From Mesorhizobium sp. 65-26 (GTDB lineage: Bacteria; Pseudomonadota; Alphaproteobacteria; Rhizobiales; Rhizobiaceae): a stretch of 64,000 nucleotides of DNA. This document shows, piece by piece, positions 1-16,096 of this stretch (the stretch's first letter is position 1; every line of letters begins with the position of its first letter). A program made the position numbers and the translations under genes. The stretch spans positions 117,166-181,165 of the forward strand of contig NZ_MKVL01000010.1 in assembly GCF_001899205.1 (NCBI RefSeq), read 5' to 3'. Below the pieces are notes generated by a model. The model had not been told where the DNA came from. It saw nothing but the letters and a program-made list of their open reading frames with translations, and made no database searches.

Positions 1-908
1 ACGGCGATGCCGAGATTGACCTCTCGCGACAGCACCAGCGCGCCGCCGTCGAGGCGGGCGTTGACCTGCGGAAAGTCGCGCAGCGCTATGCAGGTGGCGC
101 GGGCGATGAAGGGCAGGTAGGTCAGCGACAGGCCATTGTCCTGCCTGAAGCGCTCCTTGCGCTCGGCGCGCACCCGCTCGACGGCCGTGAAATCGACTTC
201 GATCGCCTGGAAGACATGCGGGATGGTGCGCCAGTTCTCGGCCAGCCTCTCACCGGTCCGCCTGCGGATGGCATTCAGCGTCACCACCTCGCCGGTGGCG
301 GGCGCGGCGGAAACCGGCGCCGGCGCCTGCATGGCCGGCTCGGCGGCGGGCTCCGGCGCGCGTGAAATCCGTTCCGCCGGGGCCGCCGAGGCCAGGGCGG
401 CCCGTACGTCCTTTTCTCCGATCCTGCTGGTGCCCGAAGCGAGCGCGGCGCGCGCCAGCACGTCGGCGTCGAGACCGTTCTGGGCGATCAGCCGCCGCGC
501 CAGCGGCGTGATGCGGACACCGCCGGTCCTGGCCGGACCGAAGGCATCGAGCGGCGTCGACACTTCCTCGAACGGGGAGCGCGCCTCGGGGCGAGGGGCG
601 GGTTGCGGCGTTGGCGCCGTGCTGGCGGGCGCGGAGGCTACCGCGGCGGCCTTTGCGGCGGACAAACCCGCCGCGCCGCCGATGACGGCGACGACGGCGC
701 CGACCTTGGCCACTTCGCCGGACTTGACCCTGATCTCGCTGAGCGCGCCGGCGACGGTCGCCTGGACCTCCATCGTCACCTTGTCGGTCTCGATTTCGAA
801 GAGGTTGTCGCCTTCGTTGACCGCGTCGCCCTCCTGCTTGAACCAGGAGAGGATCCGGCCCTCGGCGACGGTCTCGCCGAGCTGCGGCATCAGGACGTCG
901 GCGCTCAT
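1..908 (-). CDS. Dihydrolipoamide acyltransferase (E2) of a 2-oxoacid/acetoin dehydrogenase complex, 3' end outside window
   Basis: Not in ORF track (runs off the edge). Read manually from ATG 908: MSADVLMPQLGETVAEGRILSWFKQEGDAV...FEIETDKVTMEV (lipoyl domain, lipoyl-Lys in ETDK), Ala/Pro linker, E3-binding motif (RITPLARRL). ATGA overlap with E1 beta stop. Confidence 0.93.
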   Translation of the reverse strand, partial: MSADVLMPQLGETVAEGRILSWFKQEGDAVNEGDNLFEIETDKVTMEVQATVAGALSEIRVKSGEVAKVGAVVAVIGGAAGLSAAKAAAVASAPASTAPTPQPAPRPEARSPFEEVSTPLDAFGPARTGGVRITPLARRLIAQNGLDADVLARAALASGTSRIGEKDVRAALASAAPAERISRAPEPAAEPAMQAPAPVSAAPATGEVVTLNAIRRRTGERLAENWRTIPHVFQAIEVDFTAVERVRAERKERFRQDNGLSLTYLPFIARATCIALRDFPQVNARLDGGALVLSREVNLGIA

Positions 909-1894
909 CTCTTCGACCCGTTCATGACCCGCGAGATCTTCTCGACGATGCGCGGCGCGTTCGGCAGCGCGAGATCCTCGAGGTGGTCGGCGGCCGGCAG
1001 CGGTATGTGCGGCGTGGTGATGCGCACGATCGGGCCGTCGAGGTCCCAGAACGCCTCGTCGGCGACGATGGAGGCGATCTCGGCGCCCCAGCCGCACAGG
1101 CGCGGATTCTCCTCGACGGTAAACAGCCGGCCGGTCTTCGCCACGGAAGCCAGGATGGTGGCCGTGTCGAGCGGCACCAGCGAGCGCACGTCGATGACCT
1201 CGCAGTCGATGCCGTGCTCCGCCGCCAGCGTCTCGGCGGCGGCCAGCGCGCGCGGAACCATCAGCGCCAGCGCCAGTATGGTGGCGTCCTTGCCCGGCCG
1301 CAGGATTTTCGCGGTGCCCAGGGTGTCGATGATCTCGCCGTCGGGAACCTCGCCCTTCACCGCGTAGAGCGATTTGTGCTCGTGGAAGATCACCGGATTG
1401 TCGTCGCGCACCGCCGCCGCCATTAGGCCGATGACATCGACCGGCGAGGAGGGGGCCACGACCTTGAGGCCGGGGATCATCATCGTCCAGTTCTCGATCG
1501 ACTGCGAATGCTGCGCGCCGAAGCGGGCGCCGCCGCCATTGCCGGTGCGCACCACCAGCGGGCAGCCGAGCTGGCCGTTGGTCATGTAGCGCAGCTTGGG
1601 GAATTCGTTGGCGATGTAGTCGAAGCAGACGGCGACGAAATCGGCGAACATGATCTCGGCGATCGGCCTCAGCCCCGTCATCGCCGCGCCCATGGCGGCG
1701 CCGAGGATGGCCTGTTCGGAGATCGGCGTGTCGCGCACCCGGCGCGGGCCGAATTTCTCGTAGAGACCGACGGTCGACTTGAACACGCCGCCGGCCTTGG
1801 CCACGTCCTCGCCCAGGAAGACGACGTTCTCGTCGCGCTCCATCTCCTGCGCGATGGCGCGGGCGACCGCGTCGCGATAGGTCAGTTCCGCCAT
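905..1894 (-). CDS. ThDP-dependent dehydrogenase E1 beta subunit (acetoin dehydrogenase AcoB/PdhB-like)
   Basis: MAELTYRDAVARAIAQEMERDENVVFLGEDV...RVRDTPISEQAILGAAMGAA...GAQHSQS; start trimmed to ATG 1894, overlapping E1 alpha stop. Confidence 0.95.
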   Translation of the reverse strand: MAELTYRDAVARAIAQEMERDENVVFLGEDVAKAGGVFKSTVGLYEKFGPRRVRDTPISEQAILGAAMGAAMTGLRPIAEIMFADFVAVCFDYIANEFPKLRYMTNGQLGCPLVVRTGNGGGARFGAQHSQSIENWTMMIPGLKVVAPSSPVDVIGLMAAAVRDDNPVIFHEHKSLYAVKGEVPDGEIIDTLGTAKILRPGKDATILALALMVPRALAAAETLAAEHGIDCEVIDVRSLVPLDTATILASVAKTGRLFTVEENPRLCGWGAEIASIVADEAFWDLDGPIVRITTPHIPLPAADHLEDLALPNAPRIVEKISRVMNGSKR

Positions 1895-2910
1895 GACCAT
1901 CCCCCGTCGGCGTAGACATCCGTGGTAAGCAATTCGGCCGGTGCCGGTGGCGAGGCCTTGCACAGTTCGGTGGCGGCCTCGACCTTGCGCTTGCTCTCGG
2001 CGTCGATGGCCGTGATCTCGGCCTCCGAGATGCCGAATTCCCTCAGCCGCTCGCGGTAGATCTTGACCGGGTCGCGCTCCAGCCATTTCTCCAGCTCGCC
2101 CTCGGGACGGTATTTCGCCGGATCGGCGCGCGAGTGGCCGGAATGCCGGTAGGTCATGCATTCGATGAGCGAGGGACCGCCGCCGTCGCGCGCTTTGACG
2201 AAGGCGGCCTGCGCGGTGCGGTAGACGACGTCGGCGTCGTTGCCGTCGACGACGATGCGCTCCAGCCCGTAGGCGGAGGCGCGGTCGGCGGCGGGATGCT
2301 CGACCGCCGTCACGTCGCCGATCGGCGTGTATTCCATGTAGAGGTTGTTCTCGCAGATGAAGACCACCGGCAGCTTCCAGATGGCGGCGAAGTTCAGCGC
2401 TTCGTGGAAGGCGCCGATGTTGGTGGTGCCGTCGCCGAAGAAGCAGACCGAGACGTCCTTCTGGCCGAGATATTGCGCCCGCCAGGCCGAGCCGCAGGCG
2501 ATCGGCAGGTGCGCGCCGATGATGGCGTAGGAGCCCATCACGCCGTGCTCCACCGAGGTCAGGTGCATCGAGCCGCCCTTGCCGCGCATGAGGCCGACGT
2601 CGCGCAGCATCAGTTCGCCCAGCACCTGCTCCATCGGCACGCCGCGCGCCAGAGTGTGGGCGTGGCCGCGATAGGTGCAGAACGACTTATCACCCGGCTG
2701 CATGGCCATGGCGACGCCGGCGGCGATCGCCTCCTGGCCGAGCGACAGGTGGCTGGTGCCCTTGATGAGGTTCTGGAAGAACAGATCGTTGGCGCGCTTC
2801 TCGCAGTCGCGGATCTCGACCTGGAGCCGGTAGAGCTCGAGCCGGGTTTCCGGGCCAATATCGTCGTTCGACAGGCCCGCCTTGCGGGACCCGGTGTGTT
2901 TTCCTGACAT
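1882..2910 (-). CDS. ThDP-dependent dehydrogenase E1 alpha subunit (acetoin dehydrogenase AcoA/PdhA-like)
   Basis: HLSLGQEA, YRGHAH, GKGGSMH, ThDP motif GDG...ENN, YRHSGHSRADPAKYR. C-terminal part of track ORF 1882..3915; start trimmed to ATG 2910. Confidence 0.95.
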   Translation of the reverse strand: MSGKHTGSRKAGLSNDDIGPETRLELYRLQVEIRDCEKRANDLFFQNLIKGTSHLSLGQEAIAAGVAMAMQPGDKSFCTYRGHAHTLARGVPMEQVLGELMLRDVGLMRGKGGSMHLTSVEHGVMGSYAIIGAHLPIACGSAWRAQYLGQKDVSVCFFGDGTTNIGAFHEALNFAAIWKLPVVFICENNLYMEYTPIGDVTAVEHPAADRASAYGLERIVVDGNDADVVYRTAQAAFVKARDGGGPSLIECMTYRHSGHSRADPAKYRPEGELEKWLERDPVKIYRERLREFGISEAEITAIDAESKRKVEAATELCKASPPAPAELLTTDVYADGGWSWRN

Positions 2911-2974: not shown

Positions 2975-2989
2975 TTCTCATATTGAACA
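2975..2989. promoter_or_regulatory. Candidate operator, copy 1 (TTCTCA-TAT-TGAACA)
   Basis: Imperfect version of the palindrome at 3066-3080; lies 65 bp upstream of the E1 alpha start. Confidence 0.5.
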
Positions 2990-3065
2990 ATCTTTTCCTT
3001 ACGCGCCGCGTCGATGCATGGCAGCGCTGTCATGCGTCCGGGCGATGCCAGCGCGATTGCAAAGA

Positions 3066-3080
3066 TTCTCATTTTGAGAA
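3066..3080. promoter_or_regulatory. Candidate operator, copy 2 (TTCTCA-TTT-TGAGAA, perfect 6-3-6 palindrome)
   Basis: AT-rich palindrome in the divergent intergenic region between the aco-like operon and the regulator. Confidence 0.6.
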
Positions 3081-3381
3081 AATGTCGGGAGGCGGCCCCG
3101 GCCGTCGATGCTAGCATCCAGGATGGGAGGAGCTGTGCCCGCGCCCAGGAGGACCGACCCCGCAGGGGCGGCGGCGCCATTGCTCCATGTGGATGATGCC
3201 GGAACCGGCGGGACGCGATGCGCCCGGCGGCGCGACGTGCCGGGCCGGGATCGTGGCCCGGCTCGGGTCGCGGCCGACGAAAGGGGAGAATTGAGCGCGA
3301 AGGCGCGAGGCAGGCACAGGTCCGAGGGCAGCGCGCGGAGCCGATACCGGCGCGAGGCCTTGCTGAAGGGAGGAGGATCCG

Positions 3382-5133
3382 ATGCTCGGTTTTGTGGAAC
3401 AGGAAGCCGACCGGTCGCAGGCCGACCGGATGACAGATTACGAACTGCTTCGCATCATCAATTTCCTGGAGCGCATCCGCGTTCCCTATGACGAGAAACT
3501 GCAGGCGGCATCGCCCGATCCGGTCTGGAACATCGTGCTCTTCCTGATGAAGAGCCACCTGCGCGGCGACACCGTCACCATGTCGTCGCTGGCCTCGGTG
3601 TCGCAGATACCGTTCCCCAGCGCCATGCGCCGCATCCACAAGCTGATCGACGACGGCGACATCGAGCAGATGAACCGCAGCGCGACCGGCAAGTCGTTCT
3701 TCCTGGTGCCCAGTTCGCGGCTGAAATCCAGCTTCGTCGCCTATGCGATCCGGGTGAAGGCATTGCTGGCCGAGACCTTCGGGCTGGGCGGCGGTAGCGC
3801 CAACGCGGAGGAGTATTATTTCGGCGGTTCCTACCTCGCCGACCAGATCATCCCGCCGCTCAGGCTGATGGAGAGCCGCCAGGCGCCGAGCCAGGACCTG
3901 CGCTTCCTGCTGCATGACGACAACTACTTCTCGTCGATGCGCAACATGTGGTCAGACTTCCGCTCCAAGCTGTCGTCACGGCGCAATTTCCGGCTGCTGG
4001 GGCTGCCAGACCTGCACAAGGAACTGTTCCGCAATGCCCGCCGCCCGGCCAGCGAATACGACGTCATGGCGGTCAACATCCCTTGGCTCGGCGAGGCGGT
4101 GAAGCAGGGCTTGGTGCAGCCGCTCAACAGCTTCCTGGTCGACAGCGGCATCAACTCGCTGGACTTCCACCCCAACATCTGGGCGACCGGCAGCTGGGAC
4201 TCCGTGCAGTACGGCGTGCCGATCTACTGCACCATCGAGACGCTGGCCGCGCGCAAGGACCTTTTCGAGGCTCATGACCTGCACATGCCGACCAGCTTCG
4301 AGAAGGTGCTCGACGCGGCGCGGCAGCTGCACAATCCCAAGCGCGGCATGCACGGCATCGTCTGGAACGCCGCGCGCGGCATGCCGATCGCTCACTCCTT
4401 CATGTTCTTCATGGGCGCCTGCGGGCAGCCGGTCATCAACGTGCCGATGGCGCGCGTGGCCTTCGACTACAGCCACATGGCGGGCGAGATGTACCGTCCG
4501 CGCGTGCAGAGCGAGGCGGGCCTGCGCACGCTCGACTACATGCGCCGGCTGCTCGCCGTCTCGCCGGCCGACATCCTCGTCATGGACTGGAATCGGGCGC
4601 TCGACTGCTTCATGCTCGGCCAGTCGGCGATGATCTACTGCTGGACGATGCGCGCCTCGCGCTTCGAATACGACATCCGCTCGGTGGTGAAACGCAAGGT
4701 CGAGTACCTGCCGCATCCGCATGGGCCGGGCGGCGCCGTCGTCGGGCCCGTCGGAGGCTTCCTGCTGACCATCCCGGCCGGCCTGTCGCCGGAACGCGCC
4801 AAGCTCGCCTTCGAGGCGATATCCTGGATGGCCTCGCCGGCGGCGATGAAGGAGCACGTCAAGAATGGCATACCGGTGGCGCCGCGCTTCAGCGTCACCG
4901 CGGACCCGGAGGCCGCCGCCACCACGCCCATCGTGCGGATGGTCGACAGGCTCGCCAAGCAGAACAAGCTGCATGGCTGGCACCGTCCGCCGATCCCCGA
5001 ATACACGCTGGTCGAAAAGATCATCGGCGAGGAGATCTTCGCCGCGCTCAACGGCGAGCTCACCGACCGGGAGGCGCTGGAGCGCTGCCAGAACGGCATC
5101 GACAAGGTGATGCGCGCGGCTGGCCACTACTGA
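3382..5133 (+). CDS. Winged-helix DNA-binding domain fused to a family-1 (CUT1) solute-binding domain; probable cytoplasmic ligand-sensing regulator
   Basis: RBS GGAGGAGG before ATG. N-terminal ~130 aa MarR-like wHTH (VTMSSLASVSQIPFPSAMRRIHKLIDDGDIE...GKSFFLVPS), no signal peptide. C-terminal ~400 aa resembles sugar SBP (YDVMAVNIPWLGE, YGVPIY, RKDLFE, GGFLLTIP). Confidence 0.8.
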   Translation: MLGFVEQEADRSQADRMTDYELLRIINFLERIRVPYDEKLQAASPDPVWNIVLFLMKSHLRGDTVTMSSLASVSQIPFPSAMRRIHKLIDDGDIEQMNRSATGKSFFLVPSSRLKSSFVAYAIRVKALLAETFGLGGGSANAEEYYFGGSYLADQIIPPLRLMESRQAPSQDLRFLLHDDNYFSSMRNMWSDFRSKLSSRRNFRLLGLPDLHKELFRNARRPASEYDVMAVNIPWLGEAVKQGLVQPLNSFLVDSGINSLDFHPNIWATGSWDSVQYGVPIYCTIETLAARKDLFEAHDLHMPTSFEKVLDAARQLHNPKRGMHGIVWNAARGMPIAHSFMFFMGACGQPVINVPMARVAFDYSHMAGEMYRPRVQSEAGLRTLDYMRRLLAVSPADILVMDWNRALDCFMLGQSAMIYCWTMRASRFEYDIRSVVKRKVEYLPHPHGPGGAVVGPVGGFLLTIPAGLSPERAKLAFEAISWMASPAAMKEHVKNGIPVAPRFSVTADPEAAATTPIVRMVDRLAKQNKLHGWHRPPIPEYTLVEKIIGEEIFAALNGELTDREALERCQNGIDKVMRAAGHY

Positions 5134-5162
5134 CCGGCGGCGGCCTGCAGCGCGCCCGCCTG

Positions 5163-5177
5163 CTCTCAAAATGATAA
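5163..5177. promoter_or_regulatory. Candidate operator, copy 3 (CTCTCA-AAA-TGATAA)
   Basis: 13/15 match to the reverse complement of 3066-3080; upstream of the ABC importer operon. Confidence 0.55.
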
Positions 5178-5357: not shown

Positions 5358-6512
5358 ATGAGCAACATCTCAAGACGCCTTGCCATGCTTCTGGTGGGCG
5401 CCGCCGGACTGGCCGCGCTCGCCGCGCCTGTCCTGGCGCAGGACGCCAAGTTCTACAACGGCGCGCCGCGGACCTATCTCTACAATCCCAACACCGATGT
5501 CTGCTTCAAGGACACCACGCAATACAAGAAGGAAGGTCCCTACACGATCGGCTTCTCCAACGCAGGCCTCGGCGACTCCTGGCGCGTCGTCATGCTGCAT
5601 TCGTTGGAGGCTTCGGCCGCCAAGCACAAGGACCAGATCAAGAAGCTGATCATCACCGATGCGGGCCATGACGACGCCAAGCAGGTGGCCGACATCCAGG
5701 ACCTCATCTCGCGCGGCGTCGATCTCCTGATCGTCAGCGCCAACACCCAGCAGGCGCTCGATCCGGCCGTGTCGCAGGCCATGGCCGCGGGCATCCCGGT
5801 GGTGATGGTCGACCGCCGTGTCGCCTCCGACAATTTCGTCACCTTCGTCACCGCCTCCGACGCCATGATGGGCCGCCTGTTCGCGCAGTGGATCGTCGAG
5901 AAACTGCACGGCAAGGGCAACGTCGTCATGCTGGCCGGGCAAGCCGGTTCGAGCCCGTCCGAGAACCGCGAGAAGCCGGCCCGCGAGGTGTTTGCGCAGT
6001 ATCCGGGCATCAAGGTGCTGGAGACGGTCTATTCCGACTGGTCGCCGGTCAAGGGCAAGCAGGTGATGCAGGCCATGATCGCCAAGTACGGCAAGCAGAT
6101 CGACGCCGTGTGGTCGGCGCACGGGCTGCAGACGCCGGGCTCGATAGAGGCTTTCATCGAGGCCGGATACAAGGATGGCGAGATCCCGCCGCACACCACC
6201 TCCGACGTCAACGGGCCGCTGCAGATGGCGATCCAGCACAAGGTGCCGATGCTCGAGGTCGGCTATCCGCCGGCGATGGGCGGCGTCTCGGTCGATGTCG
6301 CGCTGCAGGTGCTGGCCGGCGCGCCGGTGCCCTGCATCTACACGATCAACTCGCAGATCGCCGTCAGCGAGGGCGACAACACGCCTTCGATCGAAACGCC
6401 GCTGCGGCTGACCGACATGGTGGTGCCCAAGGGCGCGCCGGACATGCTGATCACCGGCGGCATGGGGCCGGACTACGACCCGAAGACCTTCAAGGTCGAC
6501 TTCCCGCAATAA
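5358..6512 (+). CDS. Sugar ABC transporter periplasmic binding protein (RbsB-like, CUT2)
   Basis: RBS GGAGG; signal peptide (..AAPVLA-QD); YTIGFSN, GVDLLIVS, IPVVMVDR motifs. Confidence 0.93.
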   Translation: MSNISRRLAMLLVGAAGLAALAAPVLAQDAKFYNGAPRTYLYNPNTDVCFKDTTQYKKEGPYTIGFSNAGLGDSWRVVMLHSLEASAAKHKDQIKKLIITDAGHDDAKQVADIQDLISRGVDLLIVSANTQQALDPAVSQAMAAGIPVVMVDRRVASDNFVTFVTASDAMMGRLFAQWIVEKLHGKGNVVMLAGQAGSSPSENREKPAREVFAQYPGIKVLETVYSDWSPVKGKQVMQAMIAKYGKQIDAVWSAHGLQTPGSIEAFIEAGYKDGEIPPHTTSDVNGPLQMAIQHKVPMLEVGYPPAMGGVSVDVALQVLAGAPVPCIYTINSQIAVSEGDNTPSIETPLRLTDMVVPKGAPDMLITGGMGPDYDPKTFKVDFPQ

Positions 6513-6526
6513 GCCTCGGTTTCGCC

Positions 6527-6559
6527 GGCGGGGGCCGCGGCAGCGCCGCGGTTCCCGCC
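6527..6559 (+). terminator. GC-rich stem-loop after SBP gene (mRNA-stabilising/attenuating hairpin)
   Basis: GGCGGG-GG-CCGCGG-cagcg-CCGCGG-TT-CCCGCC; no poly-U tail. Confidence 0.5.
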
Positions 6560-6578
6560 GCAGAATTGGACAGGGCGA

Positions 6579-8099
6579 ATGCTTACCCTTTCAGGTATCT
6601 CGAAGAGCTTCATCGGCGTCAAAGCGCTGTCGGGCATCGACCTCGACGTACGCGCGGGCGAAATCCACGCGCTGGTCGGCGAGAACGGCGCCGGCAAATC
6701 GACGACGATCAAGATCGCGGCCGGCGTCTACCGGCCCGACGCCGGCCAGATCGTGTTCGAGGGCAAGCCGGTGCAGTGGACGAGGCCGGCCGAGGCGAAG
6801 AACGCCGGCATCCACGTCATCTACCAGGAGTTCGTGCTGTTCCCGCACCTGACGGTGGCCGAGAACATCTATCTCGGGCACGAGCGGCGCAACCGCTTCG
6901 GCTTCGTCGACCATGCGCGCACCCGCCGCGACGCGGCCGAACTGCTGCGCAAGCTCGGTGTCGAGATCGATCCGCGCATGCCGGTGTCGGAACTCACGGT
7001 GGCCGACCAGCAGATGGTGGAGATCTCCAAGGCGCTCGTCCACAAGGTGAAGCTTCTCATCCTCGACGAGCCGACGGCCGTCATCTCCGGCCGCGAGGCC
7101 GAGCTGCTGTTCGCCCGCCTGGCGGCGCTGAAGGCCGAGGGCGTGGCCATCCTCTATGTATCGCACCGGCTGGAGGAGATCTTCCAGATCGCCGATCGCG
7201 TCACCGTCTTCAAGGACGGCGCCCATGTCGCCACCAAGGCCATCGGCGAGGTGACGCGCGACAGGCTGATCTCGATGATGGTCGGGCGTGACCTGAAGGA
7301 CATCTTCCCGCCCAAGAAGCCGGCCGGCGCGCCGGGCAAGGTGGTGCTCAAGGCTCAGGATATTTCCGTCGCGGGCCGTGTCCGCAACGCCGGCATCGAG
7401 GCGAGGGCAGGCGAGATCACCGCGCTGGCGGGGCTGGTCGGCGCCGGCCGCACCGAGCTTGCCATGGGCATTTTCGGCGGCCTGCCGACGACATCCGGCG
7501 ACGTCTGGATCGATAGCGAGAAGGTCGAGGCGATGACGCCGGCAATCGCCATCCGCAAGGGCGTCGGCTTCGTGACCGAGGACCGCAAGGGCCAGGGACT
7601 GGCGATGCTGCTCGATGTCGCCGCCAACGTCACCGCCGCGAACCTGTCGGCGGTGACGCGCAACGGCCTCATCGACAGGCGTCGCGAGAACGAGATCGCG
7701 CGACAGGAGATCGAGAACTACAGGATCGTCTGCCGTGGCCCGGCCACGGCCGTCGCCACCATGTCGGGGGGCAACCAGCAGAAGGTGATCGTGGCGCGCT
7801 GGGCGCGCACCAGCCGCAAGGTGCTGATCCTGGACGAGCCGACGCGCGGCGTCGATGTCGGCGCCAAGACGGAGATCTACCGCATCATGCGCGGCCTGGC
7901 GGAGCAGGGCATCGCGGTCCTGATGATCAGCTCGGAGCTGCCAGAGGTGGTCGGCATGGCTGACCGCGTCGTGGTGATGCGCGAAGGCGTCGTCAGTGGC
8001 GAGCTCGCCGGGGCCGACATCAGCGAGGAGGCGATCATGAGCCTTGCCACCCAGCATCCGGGCGCCCAGGCGCCAGCCATGGAGGGCCTGCCGCAATGA
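6579..8099 (+). CDS. Sugar ABC transporter ATP-binding protein (two ABC domains, RbsA-like)
   Basis: Walker A GENGAGKS, ILDEPT twice, MSGGNQQK signature. Confidence 0.96.
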   Translation: MLTLSGISKSFIGVKALSGIDLDVRAGEIHALVGENGAGKSTTIKIAAGVYRPDAGQIVFEGKPVQWTRPAEAKNAGIHVIYQEFVLFPHLTVAENIYLGHERRNRFGFVDHARTRRDAAELLRKLGVEIDPRMPVSELTVADQQMVEISKALVHKVKLLILDEPTAVISGREAELLFARLAALKAEGVAILYVSHRLEEIFQIADRVTVFKDGAHVATKAIGEVTRDRLISMMVGRDLKDIFPPKKPAGAPGKVVLKAQDISVAGRVRNAGIEARAGEITALAGLVGAGRTELAMGIFGGLPTTSGDVWIDSEKVEAMTPAIAIRKGVGFVTEDRKGQGLAMLLDVAANVTAANLSAVTRNGLIDRRRENEIARQEIENYRIVCRGPATAVATMSGGNQQKVIVARWARTSRKVLILDEPTRGVDVGAKTEIYRIMRGLAEQGIAVLMISSELPEVVGMADRVVVMREGVVSGELAGADISEEAIMSLATQHPGAQAPAMEGLPQ

Positions 8100-9058
8100 G
8101 CGCGATCGCTCCCGCCCAGCGGCCGACGAGGCTGCGCAACAACCAGGGCATCCTCGTCGTCGCGGCGCTGCTGGTGGCGCTGCTGATCTTCGGCGCTTTC
8201 ATCTCCGACCGCTTCCGCACCCTCTCCAACATCCTCAACATACTGGAGCAGTCGACGGGCCTCGCCCTGGTCAGCCTCGGCCAGACGCTGACCATCCTGA
8301 CCGGCGGCATCGACCTGTCCGTCGGCTCGTTGATCAGCCTGCTGTCGACGCTGACTTCCGGCCTGATCGCCGGCAAGGCGTCGATGGTGCTGCCGGTCGC
8401 GATCGGCGTGCTGCTGCTCGGCCTGCTGGTCGGCATCGCCAACGGGCTGCTGATCATCTGGCTGCGCGTCCATCCGCTCATCGTCACGCTGGGCATGGGG
8501 GCTGTGCTGCAGGGCATCGTGCTGCTCTATTCGCTGGGCCCGGCGGGTGCGGTGCCGCCAGGCTTCAACTACCTCGCCTACGGCCGGCTGCTCGGCGTGC
8601 CGGTCGGCGCCATCGTCATCGTCGTGCTGTTCCTGCTGGTCGGGCTCTTCCTGCGCTACGCCAGGCTCGGCCGCTACATCTACGCGGTCGGCGACGACGA
8701 GGCCGGCGCGCGGCTGATGGGCCTGCCACGCGCGCGGGTGCTGCTTACCGTCTACGGCTTCTCCGGCTTTTGCTGCGGGCTGGCCGCCATCTACCTCACC
8801 AGCCGATTCAGCGTCGGCCAGCCCTATACGGGGCTCAACTACACGCTCGCCTCGATCACGCCCGTCTTGGTCGGCGGCACGCTGCTCAGCGGCGGCAAGG
8901 GCGGTGTGCTGGGCACGCTGCTCGGCGTCTACCTCATCTCGCTGATCAACAACGTCCTCAATTTCATGGACGTGTCGACGCACTACCAGCTCATCGCCCA
9001 GGGCCTGATCGTCATCGCGGCGGTGTCGATCTATGTCGAGAAGAAGAAGAGGGTCTGA
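8096..9058 (+). CDS. Sugar ABC transporter permease (RbsC-like)
   Basis: Hydrophobic; TGGIDLSVGS, GRYIYAVG, LVGGTLLSGGKG. Confidence 0.95.
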   Translation: MSAIAPAQRPTRLRNNQGILVVAALLVALLIFGAFISDRFRTLSNILNILEQSTGLALVSLGQTLTILTGGIDLSVGSLISLLSTLTSGLIAGKASMVLPVAIGVLLLGLLVGIANGLLIIWLRVHPLIVTLGMGAVLQGIVLLYSLGPAGAVPPGFNYLAYGRLLGVPVGAIVIVVLFLLVGLFLRYARLGRYIYAVGDDEAGARLMGLPRARVLLTVYGFSGFCCGLAAIYLTSRFSVGQPYTGLNYTLASITPVLVGGTLLSGGKGGVLGTLLGVYLISLINNVLNFMDVSTHYQLIAQGLIVIAAVSIYVEKKKRV

Positions 9059-10032
9059 TGGTCGACGTCTCGCAAGGCACGGCCCCGGAAATCGGCGCCC
9101 CCACCGCTTCCGCCAGGAGCCGCCTGTCCGCTTACGCCCTGCCGATCTTCCTCGTCGCGCTGATCGCCGTCTCCGGCATCGTGTCGCCGGCGTTCTTGTC
9201 CGGCTCCAACATCTCCAACATGCTGCTGCAGGTGGCGCCGCTCGGCATCGTGGTGATCGGCCAGGCCTTCGTCATCATCCTGCGCGGCCTCGACCTGTCG
9301 GTGGCCTCGGTCATGGCGACGGCGGCGGTGATCGCCACCGGCTTCTCCGGCCAGAACTCCGACGTGCTGCCGATCGTGCTGATCGCCGTCGGCATCGGCG
9401 TCGCCACCGGCCTCGTCAACGGGCTGCTGGTCACCAAGCGCAGCGTCTCGCCCTTCCTGGCGACGCTCGCCACCATGATTGTGCTGCAGGGCTTCCGCTT
9501 CGCCTATACGCAAGGCGCGCCGTCGGGCAACGTGCCGCCGTTGTTCCGTCAGATCGGCTCGGCCACCTGGCACGGGCTGCCCTACAACATGATGCTGATG
9601 CTGGTGCTCGCCGTCGTCTTCGGCGTGCTGCTGTCTAGGTCGCGTTTCGGCCGCGAAGTCTACATCACCGGCGGCAATCCGACGACGGCGCGGCTGCTGG
9701 GCATCAATGCCGACCGCGTGACGGTAATCGGCTACATCATCTCGGGCGCGCTGGCGGCCGTCGCCGGCCTGGTGCTGAGCGGCTATGTCGGCATCGTCGA
9801 CAACTGGGTCGGACGCGGCTTCGAGCTGGACTCGATCGTGGCGGCGGTGATGGGCGGCATCTCGCTGTCGGGCGGCCGCGGAGGCATTGCCGGCGGCCTT
9901 TTCGGCGCGGCCATTCTGGTGGTCGTCTTCAACGCGGTGCTGCTGTTCGGGCTGCCTGTCCAGCTCCAGATCATCATCAAGGGCATCGTCATCGTGCTGG
10001 CCGCAGCTTTCTACGTGCGCCGGCGCGTGTGA
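9058..10032 (+). CDS. Second sugar ABC transporter permease (RbsC-like)
   Basis: TGATG overlap with previous stop; RGLDLSVAS, FGREVYITGGN, VMGGISLSGGRG. C-terminal part of track ORF 8044..10032. Confidence 0.94.
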   Translation: MVDVSQGTAPEIGAPTASARSRLSAYALPIFLVALIAVSGIVSPAFLSGSNISNMLLQVAPLGIVVIGQAFVIILRGLDLSVASVMATAAVIATGFSGQNSDVLPIVLIAVGIGVATGLVNGLLVTKRSVSPFLATLATMIVLQGFRFAYTQGAPSGNVPPLFRQIGSATWHGLPYNMMLMLVLAVVFGVLLSRSRFGREVYITGGNPTTARLLGINADRVTVIGYIISGALAAVAGLVLSGYVGIVDNWVGRGFELDSIVAAVMGGISLSGGRGGIAGGLFGAAILVVVFNAVLLFGLPVQLQIIIKGIVIVLAAAFYVRRRV

Positions 10033-10082
10033 CGCGCCGCGCCGGCCGGCTGGCCGGGCGGAAGAATTCGAGGAGGAAACAC

Positions 10083-10850
10083 ATGGGCAGACTTCAGGAC
10101 AAGATCGCCGTCGTCACCGGCGGCTCGCGGGGCATCGGCGGCGCTACCGTGCGCCGCTTCGCCGAGGAGGGCGCCAAGGTCGCGATCTTCGACGTGCTCG
10201 CCGAGGATGGCGAGGCGCTGGCGGCCGAGCTTTCGCGCGACGGCGGCGACGTGATCTTCGTCAAGGTCGACATCACCGACGAGAAACAGGTCGAGGCGGC
10301 GGTCTCGCGGGTGACCGGAAAATGGGGCCGGCTGGACATACTGGTCAACAACGCCGCCATCACCGGCGCCAACAAGTTCGCGCATGAGGTGACGGTGGAG
10401 GAGTGGGACCGCGTCTTCGACGTCAACGTCAAGGGCACGTTCCTGTGCACCAAATACGCGGTGCGGCCGATGATGGCGCAGAAATCCGGCTCCATCGTCA
10501 ATTTCTCGTCGATCTATGGACTGATCGGCAATGACGACATCCCGCCCTATCACGCCACGAAGGGCGCCACGCTGATGATGAGCAAGACCGACGCCATCTG
10601 CTACGCGCCCTACGGCATAAGGGTGAACGCCGTGCATCCCGGCTCGACCATGACCGAGATTTTCATGAAGTGCGCCGACACCTATCCGAAGGGCAAGCAG
10701 GCCTATCTCGACATGATGAAGGAAAAGCACCCGCTGCGCCTCGGCGAGCCGGTGGATGTCGCGAACTGCGTTCTTTTCCTCGCGTCGGAGGAGGCGCGCT
10801 TCGTCACCGGCGCCAGCCTCGTCGTCGACGGCGGCTACACCACGCAGTGA
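10083..10850 (+). CDS. Short-chain dehydrogenase/reductase (SDR)
   Basis: RBS GAGGAGG; TGGSRGIG, NNAA, YHATK (YxxxK), VDGGY. Confidence 0.95.
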   Translation: MGRLQDKIAVVTGGSRGIGGATVRRFAEEGAKVAIFDVLAEDGEALAAELSRDGGDVIFVKVDITDEKQVEAAVSRVTGKWGRLDILVNNAAITGANKFAHEVTVEEWDRVFDVNVKGTFLCTKYAVRPMMAQKSGSIVNFSSIYGLIGNDDIPPYHATKGATLMMSKTDAICYAPYGIRVNAVHPGSTMTEIFMKCADTYPKGKQAYLDMMKEKHPLRLGEPVDVANCVLFLASEEARFVTGASLVVDGGYTTQ

Positions 10851-10968
10851 AAGCGGAGGGCGCATCAGAAATGGCGCTCAACCCATTGTTTTCGCGGCAT
10901 TCCCTGGGGGAAGTCGTCTCATCTTTATCCTGGACTTGTTCCAGGCAGCATATCGCGGAGAGCAGCGC

Positions 10969-12036
10969 ATGAAGGCCGTCAGATTCCACGGAGCCAGGGA
11001 CATCAGGGTCGAGGACGTCGCCGAGCCGACGGCCAGGCTCGGCGCGCATGACGTGCTGATCAAGCCGATCACCACGGGCATATGCGGCACGGACCTGCAC
11101 GAATACATCGCCGGGCCGATCGTCACGCCGTCGACGCCGCATGTCTATACCGGCGCGACCAACCCGCAGATACTCGGCCATGAGTTCAGCGCGGTGGTGG
11201 CCGACACCGGCTCGGCGGTGACCAATGTGAAGGCTGGCGACCGCGTCTCCATCCAGCCGCTGATTTCGCCGCGCGACGACTATTTCGGCCGCCGCGGCCT
11301 CTACCATCTCAGCCCGCAAATGGCTTGCGTCGGGTTGAGCTGGGCCTGGGGCGGCATGGGGGAGCTCGCCATCGTCAACGACTACAACGTCGTGCCGGTG
11401 CCGAAAGGGGTGAGCGACGTGCAGGCGGCGATGATCGAGCCGGCTGCGGTCGCCATCTACGGCACCGACCGGGGCGGCGTGCAGTCGGGCTCGACGGTGC
11501 TGGTCTCGGGCGCCGGCCCGATCGGCGCGCTGACCCTGCTGGCGGCGAAGGCGGCGGGCGCGGCGCGCATCTTCGTCTCGGAGCCGAATCCCAACCGCCT
11601 CGCCAAGGCGAAGGAACTGATCCCGGACTGCATCGCCATCGACCCGACCAGGGACAATCTCGACGAGATCATCGCCGACCATACCGAGGAGGGGGTAGGC
11701 GTGGATGTCGCGCTGGAATGCGTCGGGCTGGAGGCCAGCCTCAACGCCTGCGCCAGGGCGGTGCGCCGCCAGGGCAAGGTTGTGCAGACCGGTCTGCATA
11801 TGAAGCCGGCCAGCATCGACGCCATGCTGTGGGCGCTCAAGGACATCACGGTCGAGGCGACCTGGTGCTACCCGGTGCAGATCTGGCCGCGTGTCATTCG
11901 CATGGTGGAGGCCGGCATCCTGCCGCTGGAGAAGGTGGTGACCGCCAACATCAGCGCCGAGGACGTGGTCGAGAAAGGCTTCGAGGCGCTGCTCGACAAG
12001 GCGGGAAAGCACCTGAAGATCCTGGTGAACATCTGA
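10969..12036 (+). CDS. Zn-dependent medium-chain dehydrogenase, 2,3-butanediol dehydrogenase-like
   Basis: GICGTDLHEY, LGHEF, GAGPIG, HLKILV; start trimmed to ATG 10969. Confidence 0.9.
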   Translation: MKAVRFHGARDIRVEDVAEPTARLGAHDVLIKPITTGICGTDLHEYIAGPIVTPSTPHVYTGATNPQILGHEFSAVVADTGSAVTNVKAGDRVSIQPLISPRDDYFGRRGLYHLSPQMACVGLSWAWGGMGELAIVNDYNVVPVPKGVSDVQAAMIEPAAVAIYGTDRGGVQSGSTVLVSGAGPIGALTLLAAKAAGAARIFVSEPNPNRLAKAKELIPDCIAIDPTRDNLDEIIADHTEEGVGVDVALECVGLEASLNACARAVRRQGKVVQTGLHMKPASIDAMLWALKDITVEATWCYPVQIWPRVIRMVEAGILPLEKVVTANISAEDVVEKGFEALLDKAGKHLKILVNI

Positions 12037-12099
12037 ATGGGCGGGGGCGCGCCGCGCCCCTTCCGCCGCACCACCGGACATCAACATCGGAGGAGAGAC

Positions 12100-12879
12100 A
12101 TGGCAGGCAATGCATTCGCGAACTATTCGCTGGAGGGCCGCACCGCGCTGGTCACCGGCGCGGCCGGCGGCATCGGCGGCGCCATCACCGAGCGGCTGGC
12201 AAGCCTTGGCGCGAGGGTGGTTCTGGCCGACGTCACCGACCGCGTGGTCGAGGTCGCCAAGGGCTGGGCGGACAAGGGCTACAAGACCAAGGGCGTCAAG
12301 GTCGATGTCACCAACAGCGCCGAGGTCGAGCGGGCGGCGGCAAGCCTCAACGAGGAGTTCGGCGCGGTCGACATACTGGTCGCCAATGCCGGCATTTCCT
12401 ATGAGAGCGACACGGCCGGGCATTCCGACGAGGACTGGCGCCGCTGCATGGCGATCAACCTCGACGGCATCTTCTACTGCGTGCGCTCCTTCGGCAAACG
12501 CATGGTGGAGCGCAAGCGCGGCAGCATCGTCTGCATTTCCTCGATCGCCGGCGTCAAGGCGGTGCGGCCGGAGCTGCACGCCGGCTATGACGTCTCCAAG
12601 GCCGGCGTGGCGCATCTGTGCCGGGTGGTCGGCGTCGAATGGGCGCCGCATAATGTCCGCGTCAATGCCGTCGGGCCGGGCTACACCGAAACCGAGATGC
12701 TGAAGAAGGTGGGCGCCGCGCAGCCCGCGGTCATGGCCACCTGGATCGGCGACACGCCGATGAAGCGCCTCTTGCAGCCGGCCGAGATCGCGGCCTCGGT
12801 GGCATTCCTGGCCTCCGACGCCGCCAGCGGCATCACAGGCCATGTGTTGATGACCGACGCCGGCTATTCGGTGGCGTGA
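12100..12879 (+). CDS. Short-chain dehydrogenase/reductase (SDR)
   Basis: RBS GGAGG; TGAAGGIG, ANAG, YDVSK, RVNAVGPG. Confidence 0.94.
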   Translation: MAGNAFANYSLEGRTALVTGAAGGIGGAITERLASLGARVVLADVTDRVVEVAKGWADKGYKTKGVKVDVTNSAEVERAAASLNEEFGAVDILVANAGISYESDTAGHSDEDWRRCMAINLDGIFYCVRSFGKRMVERKRGSIVCISSIAGVKAVRPELHAGYDVSKAGVAHLCRVVGVEWAPHNVRVNAVGPGYTETEMLKKVGAAQPAVMATWIGDTPMKRLLQPAEIAASVAFLASDAASGITGHVLMTDAGYSVA

Positions 12880-13916
12880 ACATGGCGGCGGAACGGGACA
12901 TGACCGCGACATCCGATGGGCCCGTCAGGATCGCCATGGTCGGCCTCGGCTGGTGGGGCCGCAAGATGGTGGCGGTGCTCGGCGGCGCCAAGGCGCATAT
13001 CGAGGTGGCGCGGGCGGTCGAGCCGGCGCCGGGCGCGGAAGAATTCTGCGCCGCCAACGGGCTTGCGCTGAGCACCGACTATGCCGAGGCGCTCGCCGAT
13101 CCAGGCGTCGAGGCGGTGATCCTGGCGACGCCGCATTCGCTGCACGAGGAGCAGATCGAGCGCGCCGTGGCTGCGGGCAAGCATGTATTCTGCGAAAAGC
13201 CGCTGGCCATGACCAGGACTGGGGCGGAGAGGGCCGTGGCGCTGTGCCGCGATGCCGGGCTGGTGCTCGGCATGGGCCACGAGCGGCGTTTCGAGCCGCC
13301 GATCGCCATGATCCTCGAGGCCGCCGCCGATGGTCGCCTCGGCCGCGTGCTGCAGGTCGAGGCCAATTTCAGCCACGACAAGTTCCTCGGGCTCGATCCG
13401 TCGAACTGGCGGCTCAACGCCAGCCAGGCGCCGGCCGCCGGCATGACGGCGACCGGCATCCACCTCACCGACCTGTCGACGCGGCTGCTCGGCCCGGCGC
13501 GCGACGTGCGCGTCGCCTGCGAGAACCTCGCCTCGGAAATTCCCCAGGGCGATACGCTGAGCGCGCATATCCGCTTCCATGGCGGCGGCACAGCCTACGT
13601 GTCGGCGACGCTGGCGACGCCCTTCGTGTCGCGCTTCGCCGTGTTCGGCACCAAGGGCTGGATCGAGGTGCGCGACAAGGCGCATGTCGAGGCGCCAGCC
13701 GGCTGGGTGGTGACCAGCGCATGGACTGGCACGCCGATCGAGGTGCGGGAGGTGGCACCCGCCGAGCCGGTTCGCGACAACCTCGTCGCCTTCGCCGAGG
13801 CGGTGCGCGGCAGGCGCGCCTACCCGATCACCGGCGAGGAGATGATCAACAACATCGCCATCCTCGAGAGCATCATCCGATCGGCCGGCACCGGCATGGT
13901 CGAGCTCGTGGCCTGA
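12876..13916 (+). CDS. Gfo/Idh/MocA family oxidoreductase
   Basis: VGLGWWG, ILATPHSLH, FCEKPLA, GIHLTD; exact start (12876/12882/12900) uncertain. Confidence 0.92.
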   Translation: MNMAAERDMTATSDGPVRIAMVGLGWWGRKMVAVLGGAKAHIEVARAVEPAPGAEEFCAANGLALSTDYAEALADPGVEAVILATPHSLHEEQIERAVAAGKHVFCEKPLAMTRTGAERAVALCRDAGLVLGMGHERRFEPPIAMILEAAADGRLGRVLQVEANFSHDKFLGLDPSNWRLNASQAPAAGMTATGIHLTDLSTRLLGPARDVRVACENLASEIPQGDTLSAHIRFHGGGTAYVSATLATPFVSRFAVFGTKGWIEVRDKAHVEAPAGWVVTSAWTGTPIEVREVAPAEPVRDNLVAFAEAVRGRRAYPITGEEMINNIAILESIIRSAGTGMVELVA

Positions 13917-13940
13917 ACGACAGCAAGCGGAGAGACGAAC

Positions 13941-14921: not shown

Positions 14922-14933
14922 AGGGAGCAAGCA

Positions 14934-15233
14934 ATGTCCAGGCAATTGACCGTGGTTGCGCATCTGGTCGCGAGGCCGGCCAAGATCGAGGAGACGCGAA
15001 AGTTCCTGCTGTCGCTGATCGAGCCGACGCGGGCCGAGCCCGGTTGCATCGACTATGACCTGCACCAGGATGACGAGCGGCCGGCCGAGTTCACCTTCTA
15101 CGAGAACTGGAAGGACCGCGCGGCCTGGGACGCGCATATGCTGACGCCCAACCTGCACGAGTTCGCGCGGCGCGCCGACGAGTTGTTCGCCGTGCCGCCG
15201 CACATCCGGCTGATGACGATGATCAGCGCGTAG
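14934..15233 (+). CDS. Antibiotic-biosynthesis-monooxygenase (ABM)/putative quinol monooxygenase
   Basis: TRAEPGCIDYDLHQD...FTFYENWKDRAAWDAHM; RBS GGGAG. Confidence 0.88.
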   Translation: MSRQLTVVAHLVARPAKIEETRKFLLSLIEPTRAEPGCIDYDLHQDDERPAEFTFYENWKDRAAWDAHMLTPNLHEFARRADELFAVPPHIRLMTMISA

Positions 15234-15357
15234 GCATCCCGTGGCATCCGGCGGCATTCTCATTCTGGATATCTTTCGCGCCCGCGCCAGCGGCACCCGC
15301 GACTAGACTTTCACCATCCGGTGCTGGAGGGCGCCGGCGGCGATCAGGGAGGCGACG

Positions 15358-16077: not shown

Positions 16078-16096
16078 ACGGGACCGGAGGACGGAT

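What the first reader, a model, noticed from the sequence alone, without database searches (positions are those of the whole stretch)
2975..5177. Three copies of a TTCTCA-N3-TGAGAA operator link the dehydrogenase operon and the ABC operon
Seen: 3066-3080 TTCTCA-TTT-TGAGAA (perfect), 2975-2989 TTCTCA-TAT-TGAACA and 5163-5177 CTCTCA-AAA-TGATAA (13/15 to the reverse complement of the perfect copy). All are intergenic and AT-rich in a GC-rich background. A weaker half-match, TTCTCA-TTC-TGGATA, lies at 15257-15271 before the last SDR-cupin pair. Inference: this is the binding site of the wHTH-SBP regulator and defines its regulon.
Basis: partly seen in the sequence, partly recalled or inferred. Interest (0 to 1): 0.62.

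Follow-up and report, generated by a model that had tools for sequence, protein, structure and literature searches.

The report
Operator sites of a mislabelled sugar-sensor regulator
Three copies of a 15-base palindrome (TTCTCA-N3-TGAGAA) are real, conserved protein-docking sites that most likely let one uncharacterised regulator, which databases label as a transporter's "solute-binding protein", switch a dehydrogenase operon and a sugar/polyol uptake operon together.

Summary
All three 15-mers are intergenic and lie at the stated coordinates. They are the only strong matches in the 64 kb window. Perfect copies occur 11 times in 688 kb of related loci, against 0.03 expected by chance.

All 10 loci whose regulator is at least 73% identical carry them, at fixed offsets: 64-66 nt before the E1-alpha start and 177-184 nt before the binding-protein start in six of seven loci. 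O1 and O2 are invariant in five Mesorhizobium species, while only about half of the surrounding spacer is.

The 583-aa neighbour is a cytoplasmic fusion of a MarR-like winged helix and a MalE-type solute-binding domain. The motif follows this protein's recognition helix. It is found only in clade A (26 of 56 loci, 0 of 24 elsewhere). Two other clades have their own 6-N3-6 palindromes, TATCCG-N3-CGGATA and GGTCCA-N3-TGGACC.

So the "operator of the wHTH-SBP regulator" reading is well supported by comparison, though no binding was tested. The fourth site at 15257 is not supported. Whether the protein represses or activates is unresolved; I favour a ligand-released repressor. About 59% of clade-A loci show no nearby site. 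I found no published description of the family; SgrR is the closest known analogue.

The parts
2975..2989 (.). Operator O1, TTCTCATATTGAACA. It is the E1-alpha-proximal site, starting 65 nt upstream of the E1-alpha ATG.
   Evidence: 23.7 bits. It is 15/15 invariant in 5 Mesorhizobium species. An equivalent site lies 62-66 nt from the E1-alpha start in L001-L005, L007 and L008.
3066..3080 (.). Operator O2, the perfect palindrome TTCTCATTTTGAGAA. It lies in the divergent E1-alpha/regulator spacer.
   Evidence: 34.8 bits. It is 15/15 invariant while the flanking spacer carries indels and substitutions. Perfect or 1-mismatch equivalents occur in L001-L008 and L010.
5163..5177 (.). Operator O3, CTCTCAAAATGATAA. 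Its end lies 181 nt upstream of the binding-protein ATG of the ABC operon.
   Evidence: 23.8 bits. The offset to the binding-protein start is 177-184 nt in the window and L001-L005, even though L003 has a ~100-nt insertion upstream and L005 has the regulator 2.7 kb away. L006 is the exception at 249 nt.
3382..5133 (+). The candidate regulator, 583 aa. Residues ~17-133 form a MarR-like winged helix. An invariant YYFGG linker follows (145-148). Residues ~170-583 form an SBP_bac_1 (MalE-type) domain. There is no signal peptide.
   Evidence: Pfam finds SBP_bac_1 and SBP_bac_8 only and nothing for the N-terminal part. AlphaFold2 models. Foldseek: the C-terminal part matches 5iai and 4rya; the N-terminal part matches MarR-family proteins and AspA. 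Hydropathy. Invariant linker.
1882..2910 (-). E1-alpha subunit of an acetoin/pyruvate-dehydrogenase-like complex. It is the first gene of the divergent operon.
   Evidence: Pfam E1_dh 1.7e-70. NCBIfam PDH_E1_alph_y scores below its cutoff.
3..1885 (-). E1-beta (905-1885) and E2 (3-902, which runs off the window). Both are in the same operon.
   Evidence: Pfam Transket_pyr and Transketolase_C; Biotin_lipoyl and 2-oxoacid_dh. In orthologue L081 the operon continues with an M24 peptidase, CobW and a NAD_binding_2 dehydrogenase.
5358..16492 (+). The ABC-plus-dehydrogenase operon. In order: Peripla_BP_4 binding protein, ATPase, two permeases, SDR, Zn-ADH, SDR, Gfo/Idh/MocA, Zn-ADH, ABM, SDR, cupin.
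   Evidence: Pfam. The gene order is the same in L081 and L085.
15257..15271 (.). A weak half-match, TTCTCATTCTGGATA. It is not supported as an operator.
   Evidence: It scores 11.6 bits. The ABM-SDR spacer is 124 nt here but 19 nt in L081 and L085, so the site has no orthologue. One caveat: a TGGATA right half also occurs in the E1-alpha-proximal sites of L005 and L007.
17921..17950 (.). A decayed site before the Oxidored_FMN gene. Only the right half, TTGAGAATCA, is kept.
   Evidence: L081 (21052) and L085 (21110) have GTTTCATATTGAGAA (18.2 and 16.5 bits) at the orthologous place. The window reads CATCCAGATTGAGAA.

Best explanation
The three palindromes are DNA operators of the adjacent 583-aa protein. 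This protein is a cytoplasmic one-component regulator: a MarR-like winged-helix head joined through a conserved YYFGG linker to a MalE-type solute-binding domain.

A dimer probably places its two recognition helices (residues 78-90, FPSAMRRIHKLI) in successive major grooves on the half-sites TTCTCA and TGAGAA, whose centres are 9 bp apart. O1 and O2 control the divergent E1-alpha/E1-beta/E2 operon and probably the regulator's own gene. O3 controls the ABC-transporter and dehydrogenase operon. One ligand signal would therefore switch uptake, oxidation and ThDP-dependent cleavage together.

The most likely mode, at about 60% if binding is granted, is repression that is relieved when a sugar- or polyol-like ligand closes the binding domain and disturbs the DNA-binding geometry.

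What is shown: the sites exist, are conserved and track this protein's clade, and the protein has a DNA-binding fold. What is inferred: binding itself, dimer geometry, direction of regulation, and the ligand.
For: Statistics:
- The three sites are the only matrix hits of at least 15 bits in 64 kb. Shuffles give 0.013 such hits.
- There are 11 perfect copies in 688 kb of regulator-bearing loci, against 0.03 expected.

Footprints:
- O1 and O2 are fully invariant in 5 species, against 51% for the rest of the spacer.
- O3 is invariant at 10 of 15 positions across 7 sequences, against 31% for the rest of its spacer.

Position:
- Offsets to the E1-alpha start (62-66 nt) and to the binding-protein start (177-184 nt in six of seven loci; 249 nt in L006) are conserved despite indels and gene rearrangements.

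Link to the protein:
- Motif A is present in 10 of 10 loci with at least 73% identity and in 16 of 46 loci at 65-72%. It is absent from all 24 loci of other clades.
- Clade B (helix PYSTGNRM) has TATCCG-N3-CGGATA in 11 of 11 loci. Clade C (helix P[RH]GTAIRRIQ) has GGTCCA-N3-TGGACC in 4 of 4 loci.
- In eight clade-A loci the site lies 48-120 nt before the regulator's own start codon.

Fold and location:
- The N-terminal model (pLDDT 88) has helix-helix-helix-hairpin winged-helix topology with flanking long helices. Nearly all of its top PDB matches are winged-helix DNA binders of the MarR family or AspA.
- There is no hydrophobic leader, so the protein is cytoplasmic.

Not an RNA element:
- As RNA, the sites fold no better than shuffled sequence. 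There are no Rfam hits.
Against: - No binding or expression data exist. The runs labelled as RNA gave flat, DNA-like coverage and no transcription start sites.
- 33 of 56 clade-A loci have the same recognition helix but no site within +/-4 kb. One of them was checked to +/-10 kb (L086). No alternative palindrome was found in them.
- No convincing sigma-70 promoter could be placed near the sites, so repression versus activation is open. O3 lies just upstream of a conserved TTGATC block, which could be a -35 element. That position would suit an activator.
- The matrix is partly circular, because the window's sites were in the training set.
- Many loci are close relatives, so the counts are not independent events.
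- A genome-wide regulon scan was impossible.
Confidence: 0.72

Rival explanations
1. The same protein binds the same sites but acts as an activator, or as a dual regulator like LysR-type proteins or SgrR. It would recruit RNA polymerase to the ABC and E1 promoters when ligand is bound, and repress only its own gene.
For: O3 ends 10 nt upstream of a conserved TTGATC block followed by a conserved CTGCAACTC block. This would put the operator centre near -50. O2 lies 39 nt upstream of an invariant TAGCAT block. No strong -35/-10 pair overlaps O2 or O3. SgrR-type HTH-SBP regulators activate targets and repress themselves (bioRxiv 10.64898/2026.04.01.715812).
Against: MarR-like heads usually repress (established knowledge). 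In eight clade-A loci the operator's TTGAGA half can itself be read as a -35 hexamer, 16-17 nt before TAGACT- or TAGGAT-like hexamers (my reading). That fits occlusion. No promoter has been mapped.
Confidence: 0.25
2. The palindrome is the site of a different transcription factor encoded elsewhere, for example a global carbon regulator. Its closeness to the wHTH-SBP gene would be coincidental.
For: 33 of 56 clade-A loci carry the regulator without any nearby site. No direct binding evidence exists. The rest of the genome could not be scanned.
Against: No other regulator gene is conserved in these loci. The motif is absent from all 24 loci of other regulator clades, and those clades have clade-specific palindromes of identical geometry. 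There are no other strong sites in the 64 kb window.
Confidence: 0.1
3. The repeats are chance AT-rich promoter sequence, or RNA hairpins (terminators or attenuators), rather than protein-binding operators.
For: They lie in AT-rich spacers. A weak terminator-like hit overlaps 3086-3100 on the minus strand.
Against: Perfect copies are more than 300 times over expectation. The sites are fully invariant inside diverged spacers. The RNA hairpin is -4.3 kcal/mol with z between -1.4 and +0.4. The sites lie upstream of genes, not downstream. The half-sites are conserved while the 3-nt spacer varies, which is the signature of a dimeric protein site.
Confidence: 0.03

Closest known systems
SgrR / DsvR (E. 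coli, Vibrio cholerae): HTH (SgrR_N) fused to an SBP_bac_5 solute-binding domain
   Same: It is a cytoplasmic one-component regulator made of an N-terminal DNA-binding head and a full transporter-type solute-binding domain. It regulates itself and binds a short box near its own gene.
   Different: Neither domain is shared at the family level. Here Pfam finds SBP_bac_1 and SBP_bac_8, not SBP_bac_5, and there is no SgrR_N match even at E = 10. The targets here are catabolic operons, not a small RNA.
MarR-family repressors (MarR, HcaR, MepR, PefR, MftR)
   Same: The N-terminal 135 residues are predicted to have the same winged-helix topology with long flanking helices. Most of the top Foldseek hits are MarR-family proteins. 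The operators are short palindromes in the regulator's own promoter region.
   Different: No MarR profile matches, and the Foldseek E-values are only about 2e-3. MarR proteins are about 150 aa and bind ligand at the dimer interface. This protein adds a ~420-aa solute-binding domain as the presumed sensor.
LysR-type and LacI/GalR-type regulators
   Same: The logic is the same: a DNA-binding head fused to a periplasmic-binding-protein fold that senses a small molecule. They are local regulators of adjacent catabolic or transport operons and are often transcribed divergently.
   Different: LysR-type proteins use HTH_1 plus a ~200-aa type-II domain. LacI-type proteins use a LacI HTH plus a type-I domain. 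Neither profile matches here. The sensor here is a full-size MalE-like (cluster-1) binding protein, whose closest structures are 5iai and the sorbitol-binding 4rya.
TrmB (Thermococcus/Pyrococcus sugar-sensing regulator of the trehalose/maltose ABC operon)
   Same: It is a winged-helix regulator that senses a sugar and controls a sugar ABC transporter operon through palindromic sites (recalled from established knowledge).
   Different: The TrmB sugar-binding domain has a different fold, and no TrmB profile matches here. This comparison rests on memory and was not tested beyond the Pfam scan.

Membership tests
ABC-transporter extracellular solute-binding protein (the public annotation) | An N-terminal signal peptide or lipobox, so that the protein is exported | tested here: not met
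   The first 160 residues are a charged, helical winged-helix domain. The maximum Kyte-Doolittle value (15-residue window) in the first 200 aa is 1.28, and there is no hydrophobic leader.
ABC-transporter extracellular solute-binding protein (the public annotation) | SBP_bac_1 fold | tested here: met
   Pfam SBP_bac_1 2e-21. PDB 5iai 7.7e-27 by sequence. Foldseek target-normalised TM-score 0.87 to 5iai.
ABC-transporter extracellular solute-binding protein (the public annotation) | Encoded with cognate permeases of the matching class (CUT1: two BPD_transp_1 permeases and a MalK-type ATPase) | tested here: not met
   The adjacent transporter is of the ribose/CUT2 type: a Peripla_BP_4 binding protein, BPD_transp_2 permeases and a fused double ATPase.
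MarR family | Match to the MarR or MarR_2 sequence profiles | tested here: not met
   No Pfam or NCBIfam hit for residues 1-203, even at E = 10 for Pfam and E = 1 for NCBIfam.
MarR family | A winged helix-turn-helix flanked by N- and C-terminal helices that form the dimer interface | tested here: inconclusive
   The predicted topology is H19-39, H47-61, H67-74, H78-90, hairpin 94-110, H112-133, with pLDDT 88. MarR-family structures dominate the Foldseek hits but at E of about 2e-3 and query-normalised TM-scores of 0.4-0.5. The dimer was not modelled.
MarR family | Binds a palindromic operator as a homodimer | not testable with these tools
   Only the conserved 6-N3-6 palindromes are seen.
SgrR family | SgrR_N winged helix plus an SBP_bac_5 domain | tested here: not met
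   Pfam finds SBP_bac_1 and SBP_bac_8 only. There is no SgrR_N hit.
LysR-type regulators | HTH_1 plus a LysR_substrate domain | tested here: not met
   Neither profile matches. As a contrast, a true LysR-type protein in L010 matches both.
Transcription-factor operator (generic) | Conserved in orthologous promoters more than the surrounding spacer, at fixed positions | tested here: met
Transcription-factor operator (generic) | Site specificity co-varies with the recognition helix of the proposed factor | tested here: met
   Three regulator clades have three palindromes of the same geometry. The counts are not phylogenetically independent.
Transcription-factor operator (generic) | Demonstrated protein binding or an effect on expression | not testable with these tools
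   No usable RNA data were found.

The most novel reading that the evidence does not exclude
The window's regulator and its about 200 cluster-level relatives would form an unrecognised family of bacterial one-component transcription factors. The family would consist of a MarR-like winged helix, a YYFGG linker and a MalE-type solute-binding domain, and is annotated everywhere as "extracellular solute-binding protein".

The family would use a fixed 6-N3-6 operator geometry. Its half-site would be read by a short, swappable stretch of the recognition helix: SAMRRIH reads TTCTCA, TAIRRIQ reads GGTCCA, and TGNRM reads TATCCG.

In this genome the regulator would tie a ThDP-dependent cleavage complex to uptake and oxidation of a still unidentified polyol, cyclitol or diol. 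Its ligand would therefore name the pathway's substrate.
Probability: 0.6. Interest if true: 0.65.

Novelty: new variant of a known kind. Interest (0 to 1): 0.55.

Why it matters
- It turns a protein that every database calls a transport component into a testable transcription factor with a defined DNA site. This corrects the annotation of several hundred alphaproteobacterial genes.
- The three clade-specific palindromes, each paired with its recognition helix, give a ready-made helix-swap experiment on DNA-recognition rules.
- A full-size, ligand-specific binding domain wired to a simple operator is attractive as a biosensor part.
- Locally, it defines which genes form one unit: the E1/E2 complex, the ABC importer and eight further genes, six of them dehydrogenases (three SDR, two Zn-ADH, one Gfo/Idh/MocA) plus an ABM protein and a cupin. 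Finding the regulator's ligand would identify the substrate of this uncharacterised pathway.

Tried and rejected
- **Whole-genome regulon scan.** The regulon is therefore known only for the window and the fetched loci.
- **Transcription start sites from public runs.** The runs guessed to be RNA (X25-X28) gave flat, contig-like coverage across genes and spacers, so they are effectively DNA. They were uninformative.
- **Promoter placement.** The consensus scan found no sigma-70 promoter near any site. A TGGCAT...TTGC stretch before E1-alpha has the wrong spacing for sigma-54 and is not conserved (my reading). I rejected it.
- **RNA-element reading.** There are no Rfam hits, and the hairpins fold no better than shuffled sequence. 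Rejected.
- **The 15257 site as a fourth operator.** It scores low and its spacer is absent from the orthologues. Not supported.
- **The 25318 hit** (TTCTCATTCCGGGAA, between a YCII gene and an FAH gene). It lacks the near-invariant inner TCA/TGA positions and overlaps a start codon. I treated it as chance.
- **An alternative operator in the 33 clade-A loci without a site.** The only recurrent palindromes were coding-sequence artefacts.
- **Literature.** Six searches for a description of wHTH plus SBP_bac_1 regulators or of this palindrome found nothing relevant. A seventh search retrieved the SgrR/DsvR analogue. One look-up (L042) failed because my start codon was wrong.
Full report
**1. Observation**

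- 2975-2989 TTCTCATATTGAACA
- 3066-3080 TTCTCATTTTGAGAA (perfect)
- 5163-5177 CTCTCAAAATGATAA

Only one other hit exists in 64 kb, at 25318. Shuffles give 0.88 hits on average.

**2. Gene map**

Pfam scans give the following map.
- Minus strand: E1-alpha (1882-2910), E1-beta (905-1885) and E2 (3-902, cut by the window edge) of an acetoin/pyruvate-dehydrogenase-like complex.
- Plus strand: a 583-aa protein (3382-5133).
- Plus strand, 5358-16492: a ribose-type ABC importer followed by three SDRs, two Zn-dependent dehydrogenases, a Gfo/Idh/MocA enzyme, an ABM protein and a cupin.

All the sites are intergenic. The spacer at 2801-3000 is AT-enriched (GC 0.555, against about 0.67 elsewhere).

**3. 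Conservation**

A scan of one genome per species returned 80 loci that encode a relative of the 583-aa protein.
- Perfect palindromes occur 11 times in these 688 kb, against 0.03 expected from Markov-1 shuffles. Matches with at most one mismatch occur 18 times, against 1.3 expected.
- All 10 loci with at least 73% identity carry strong sites.
- Positions are conserved. The proximal site starts 62-66 nt from the E1-alpha ATG. The distal site starts 143-171 nt from it. O3 ends 177-184 nt from the binding-protein ATG in the window and L001-L005; L006 is the exception at 249 nt.
- The O3 offset holds even though L003 has a ~100-nt insertion between the regulator stop and O3, and even though the regulator in L005 lies 2.7 kb away.
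- In an alignment of five Mesorhizobium species, O1 and O2 are invariant at 15 of 15 positions, while 223 of the 441 remaining spacer columns are invariant. O3 is invariant at 10 of 15 positions across seven sequences, against 64 of 209 for the rest of its spacer.
- In L006 and L010 the divergent operon begins with CobW or an M24 peptidase rather than E1-alpha, yet the sites are still there. In Mesorhizobium the E1/E2 operon continues into these same genes.

A matrix built from the orthologous sites shows near-invariant TCA-N3-TGA inner positions, a W-rich spacer and A/T flanks. It is partly circular, because the window's own sites were in the training set.

**4. The proposed factor**

Every public source calls the 583-aa protein an "extracellular solute-binding protein" or a "multiple sugar transport system substrate-binding protein". 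Pfam sees only SBP_bac_1 and SBP_bac_8, in residues about 224-510. The first 200 residues match nothing in Pfam or NCBIfam.

AlphaFold2 models built on a 39-sequence alignment give the following:
- A long helix (19-39), three helices (47-61, 67-74, 78-90), a beta-hairpin wing (94-110) and a long helix (112-133). The pLDDT is 88 for this domain.
- A low-confidence linker containing the invariant YYFGG (145-148).
- A complete bilobed binding-protein fold.

Foldseek places the C-terminal part next to the Agrobacterium binding proteins 5iai and the sorbitol-binding 4rya. It places the N-terminal part among MarR-family regulators and the winged-helix protein AspA. Nearly all of the top hits are DNA binders, but E is only about 2e-3.

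There is no hydrophobic leader, so the protein is cytoplasmic. A profile-free search with the N-terminal 139 residues finds only 206 cluster representatives among 1.84 billion. In these the domain nearly always sits near the N-terminus (mostly residues 1-120), and the many full-length members are 541-633 aa. This is a small, dedicated family rather than a branch of ordinary MarR proteins.

The regulator's sensor domain is a type-II, MalE-like fold. The transporter's own binding protein is a type-I Peripla_BP_4 fold. The sensor is therefore not a copy of the cognate transport receptor.

**5. Link between site and protein**

The recognition helix reads PF[AP]SA[ML]RR[IVL]H in every locus of the clade that contains the window. 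It reads differently in the other clades (tree).

| Regulator clade | Recognition helix | Palindrome | Loci with the palindrome |
|---|---|---|---|
| A, at least 73% identity | PF[AP]SA[ML]RR[IVL]H | TTCTCA-N3-TGAGAA | 10 of 10 |
| A, 65-72% identity | same | same | 16 of 46 |
| All other clades | different | TTCTCA-N3-TGAGAA | 0 of 24 |
| B (Rhodobacteraceae) | PYSTGNRM | TATCCG-N3-CGGATA | 11 of 11 |
| C (Rhizobium/Shinella type) | P[RH]GTAIRRIQ | GGTCCA-N3-TGGACC | 4 of 4 |

- The clade-B palindrome lies in the spacer between a Zn-dehydrogenase and the operon that contains the regulator. It is often doubled, with the copies 29 bp apart.
- The clade-C palindrome lies about 72 nt before the regulator start, with a second copy further upstream.

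So three helices go with three half-sites and one geometry. This is the pattern expected if the family binds these palindromes. No other regulator gene is conserved across the loci. I found these clade-specific palindromes before I read the earlier scan notes. Those notes describe the same family with an ATATCCA-N3-TGGATAT operator in other genomes. I treat that agreement as a lead, not as independent proof.

**6. Limits**

- 33 of the 56 clade-A loci have no recognisable site within +/-4 kb. One of them, extended to +/-10 kb, has none either (L086). I found no substitute palindrome. In those genomes the long reverse-strand ABC-dehydrogenase operon runs beyond the fetched DNA, so its promoter was not seen.
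- The counts include close relatives and are not independent.
- The whole-genome search was shut, so "defines its regulon" is verified only locally.
- The 15257 half-match scores 11.6 bits and lies in a 124-nt spacer that is 19 nt long in L081 and L085. I do not count it. I note, however, that the E1-alpha-proximal sites of L005 and L007 have the same TGGATA right half.
- The orthologues do have a fourth site (GTTTCATATTGAGAA, 16-18 bits) before the Oxidored_FMN gene. In the window only its right half survives, at 17921-17950.

**7. Mechanism**

The half-site centres are 9 bp apart. This suits a winged-helix dimer contacting successive major grooves (inference). O1 keeps a strict distance to the E1-alpha start, while the O1-O2 spacing varies between 70 and 108 bp without helical phasing. 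The two sites therefore probably act on separate promoters rather than through a fixed loop.

In eight clade-A loci the operator lies 48-120 nt before the regulator's own ATG. In those loci its TTGAGA half can be read as a -35 hexamer, 16-17 nt before TAGACT- or TAGGAT-like hexamers (my reading). That fits autorepression by occlusion.

At O3, in contrast, the operator lies just upstream of a conserved TTGATC block. That position would also suit an activator.

No start-site data could be obtained, and the consensus scan is silent. I therefore commit to a ligand-released repressor at about 60%, given binding. An SgrR- or LysR-like activator-plus-autorepressor is the main alternative.

The RNA-level readings are rejected.

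**8. Comparison with known systems and novelty**

The logic of a DNA-binding head plus a periplasmic-binding-protein fold is that of the LacI and LysR families. The closest precedent for a full transporter-type binding domain is SgrR/DsvR, which has an HTH plus SBP_bac_5 and represses itself (bioRxiv 10.64898/2026.04.01.715812). None of these families' defining profiles match here. I found no paper describing this family or this palindrome.

I rate it a new variant of a known kind: an ordinary palindromic operator belonging to an apparently undescribed and systematically mis-annotated regulator family. Interest is moderate (0.55). The mechanism class is familiar. The helix/half-site pairs and the annotation correction are useful and directly testable.

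Noticed in passing
window 5223-5242: There is a conserved inverted repeat or stem-loop, AGGCGCC-AGGGAG-GGCGCCT, in the ~180-nt leader between O3 and the binding-protein start. It has seven pairs. Three of them change on both sides in at least one orthologue while staying paired, including AGACGCC...GGCGTCT in L001-L003. It could be a 5'-UTR hairpin or the site of a second factor. There is no Rfam match.
   Followed up: partly
window 3081-3381: An unusually long (~300 nt), very GC-rich (0.725) spacer lies between O2 and the regulator start. It has islands that are invariant in five species (GTGCTAGCATC, TGGGAGGAGC, ATTGCTCCATG) separated by indels that are not multiples of three. Gene callers place inconsistent small ORFs here in the orthologues. 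Its function is unknown.
   Followed up: no
window 16641-17845: A ~370-395-aa ORF with no Pfam match lies between the cupin and the Oxidored_FMN gene. In the orthologues L081 and L085 these two genes are only about 170 nt apart, so this is a window-specific insertion. It coincides with the decay of the fourth operator.
   Followed up: no
window 15234-15357: The ABM-SDR spacer is 124 nt here but 19 nt in L081 and L085. The SDR N-terminus also differs (MGRL... against MAKLDGK...). This points to a local rearrangement.
   Followed up: partly
L003 5750-5896: Mesorhizobium metallidurans has a ~100-nt insertion with internal inverted repeats (REP/MITE-like) between the regulator stop and O3. The O3-to-binding-protein distance is unchanged.
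   Followed up: no
L063 2965-3008; L066 and L075 2920-2963: In the Rhodobacteraceae clade the operator is doubled. TCTCCGYTTCGGAGA and TATCCGAARCGGAKA start exactly 29 bp apart in the Zn-dehydrogenase / NAD_binding_2-regulator spacer.
   Followed up: partly
L053 2274-2288 (also L017, L024, L047, L054): A variant site, TGTTCAAWATGAGTA (TGGRTA in L024 and L054), lies 74 nt before a ketopantoate-reductase-like (ApbA) gene. This gene is next to a glyoxalase/VOC gene that is divergent from the regulator. It suggests a different target set in the Hyphomicrobiales MAG clade.
   Followed up: partly
window 5358-6512 versus 3382-5133: The transporter's binding protein is a type-I Peripla_BP_4 fold. The regulator's sensor is a type-II SBP_bac_1 fold. 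The regulator therefore did not arise by duplication of its neighbour.
   Followed up: no
window 25318-25332: TTCTCATTCCGGGAA (12.2 bits) lies in the divergent spacer between a YCII-domain gene and a fumarylacetoacetate-hydrolase-family gene, and overlaps the YCII start codon. It is probably chance.
   Followed up: partly
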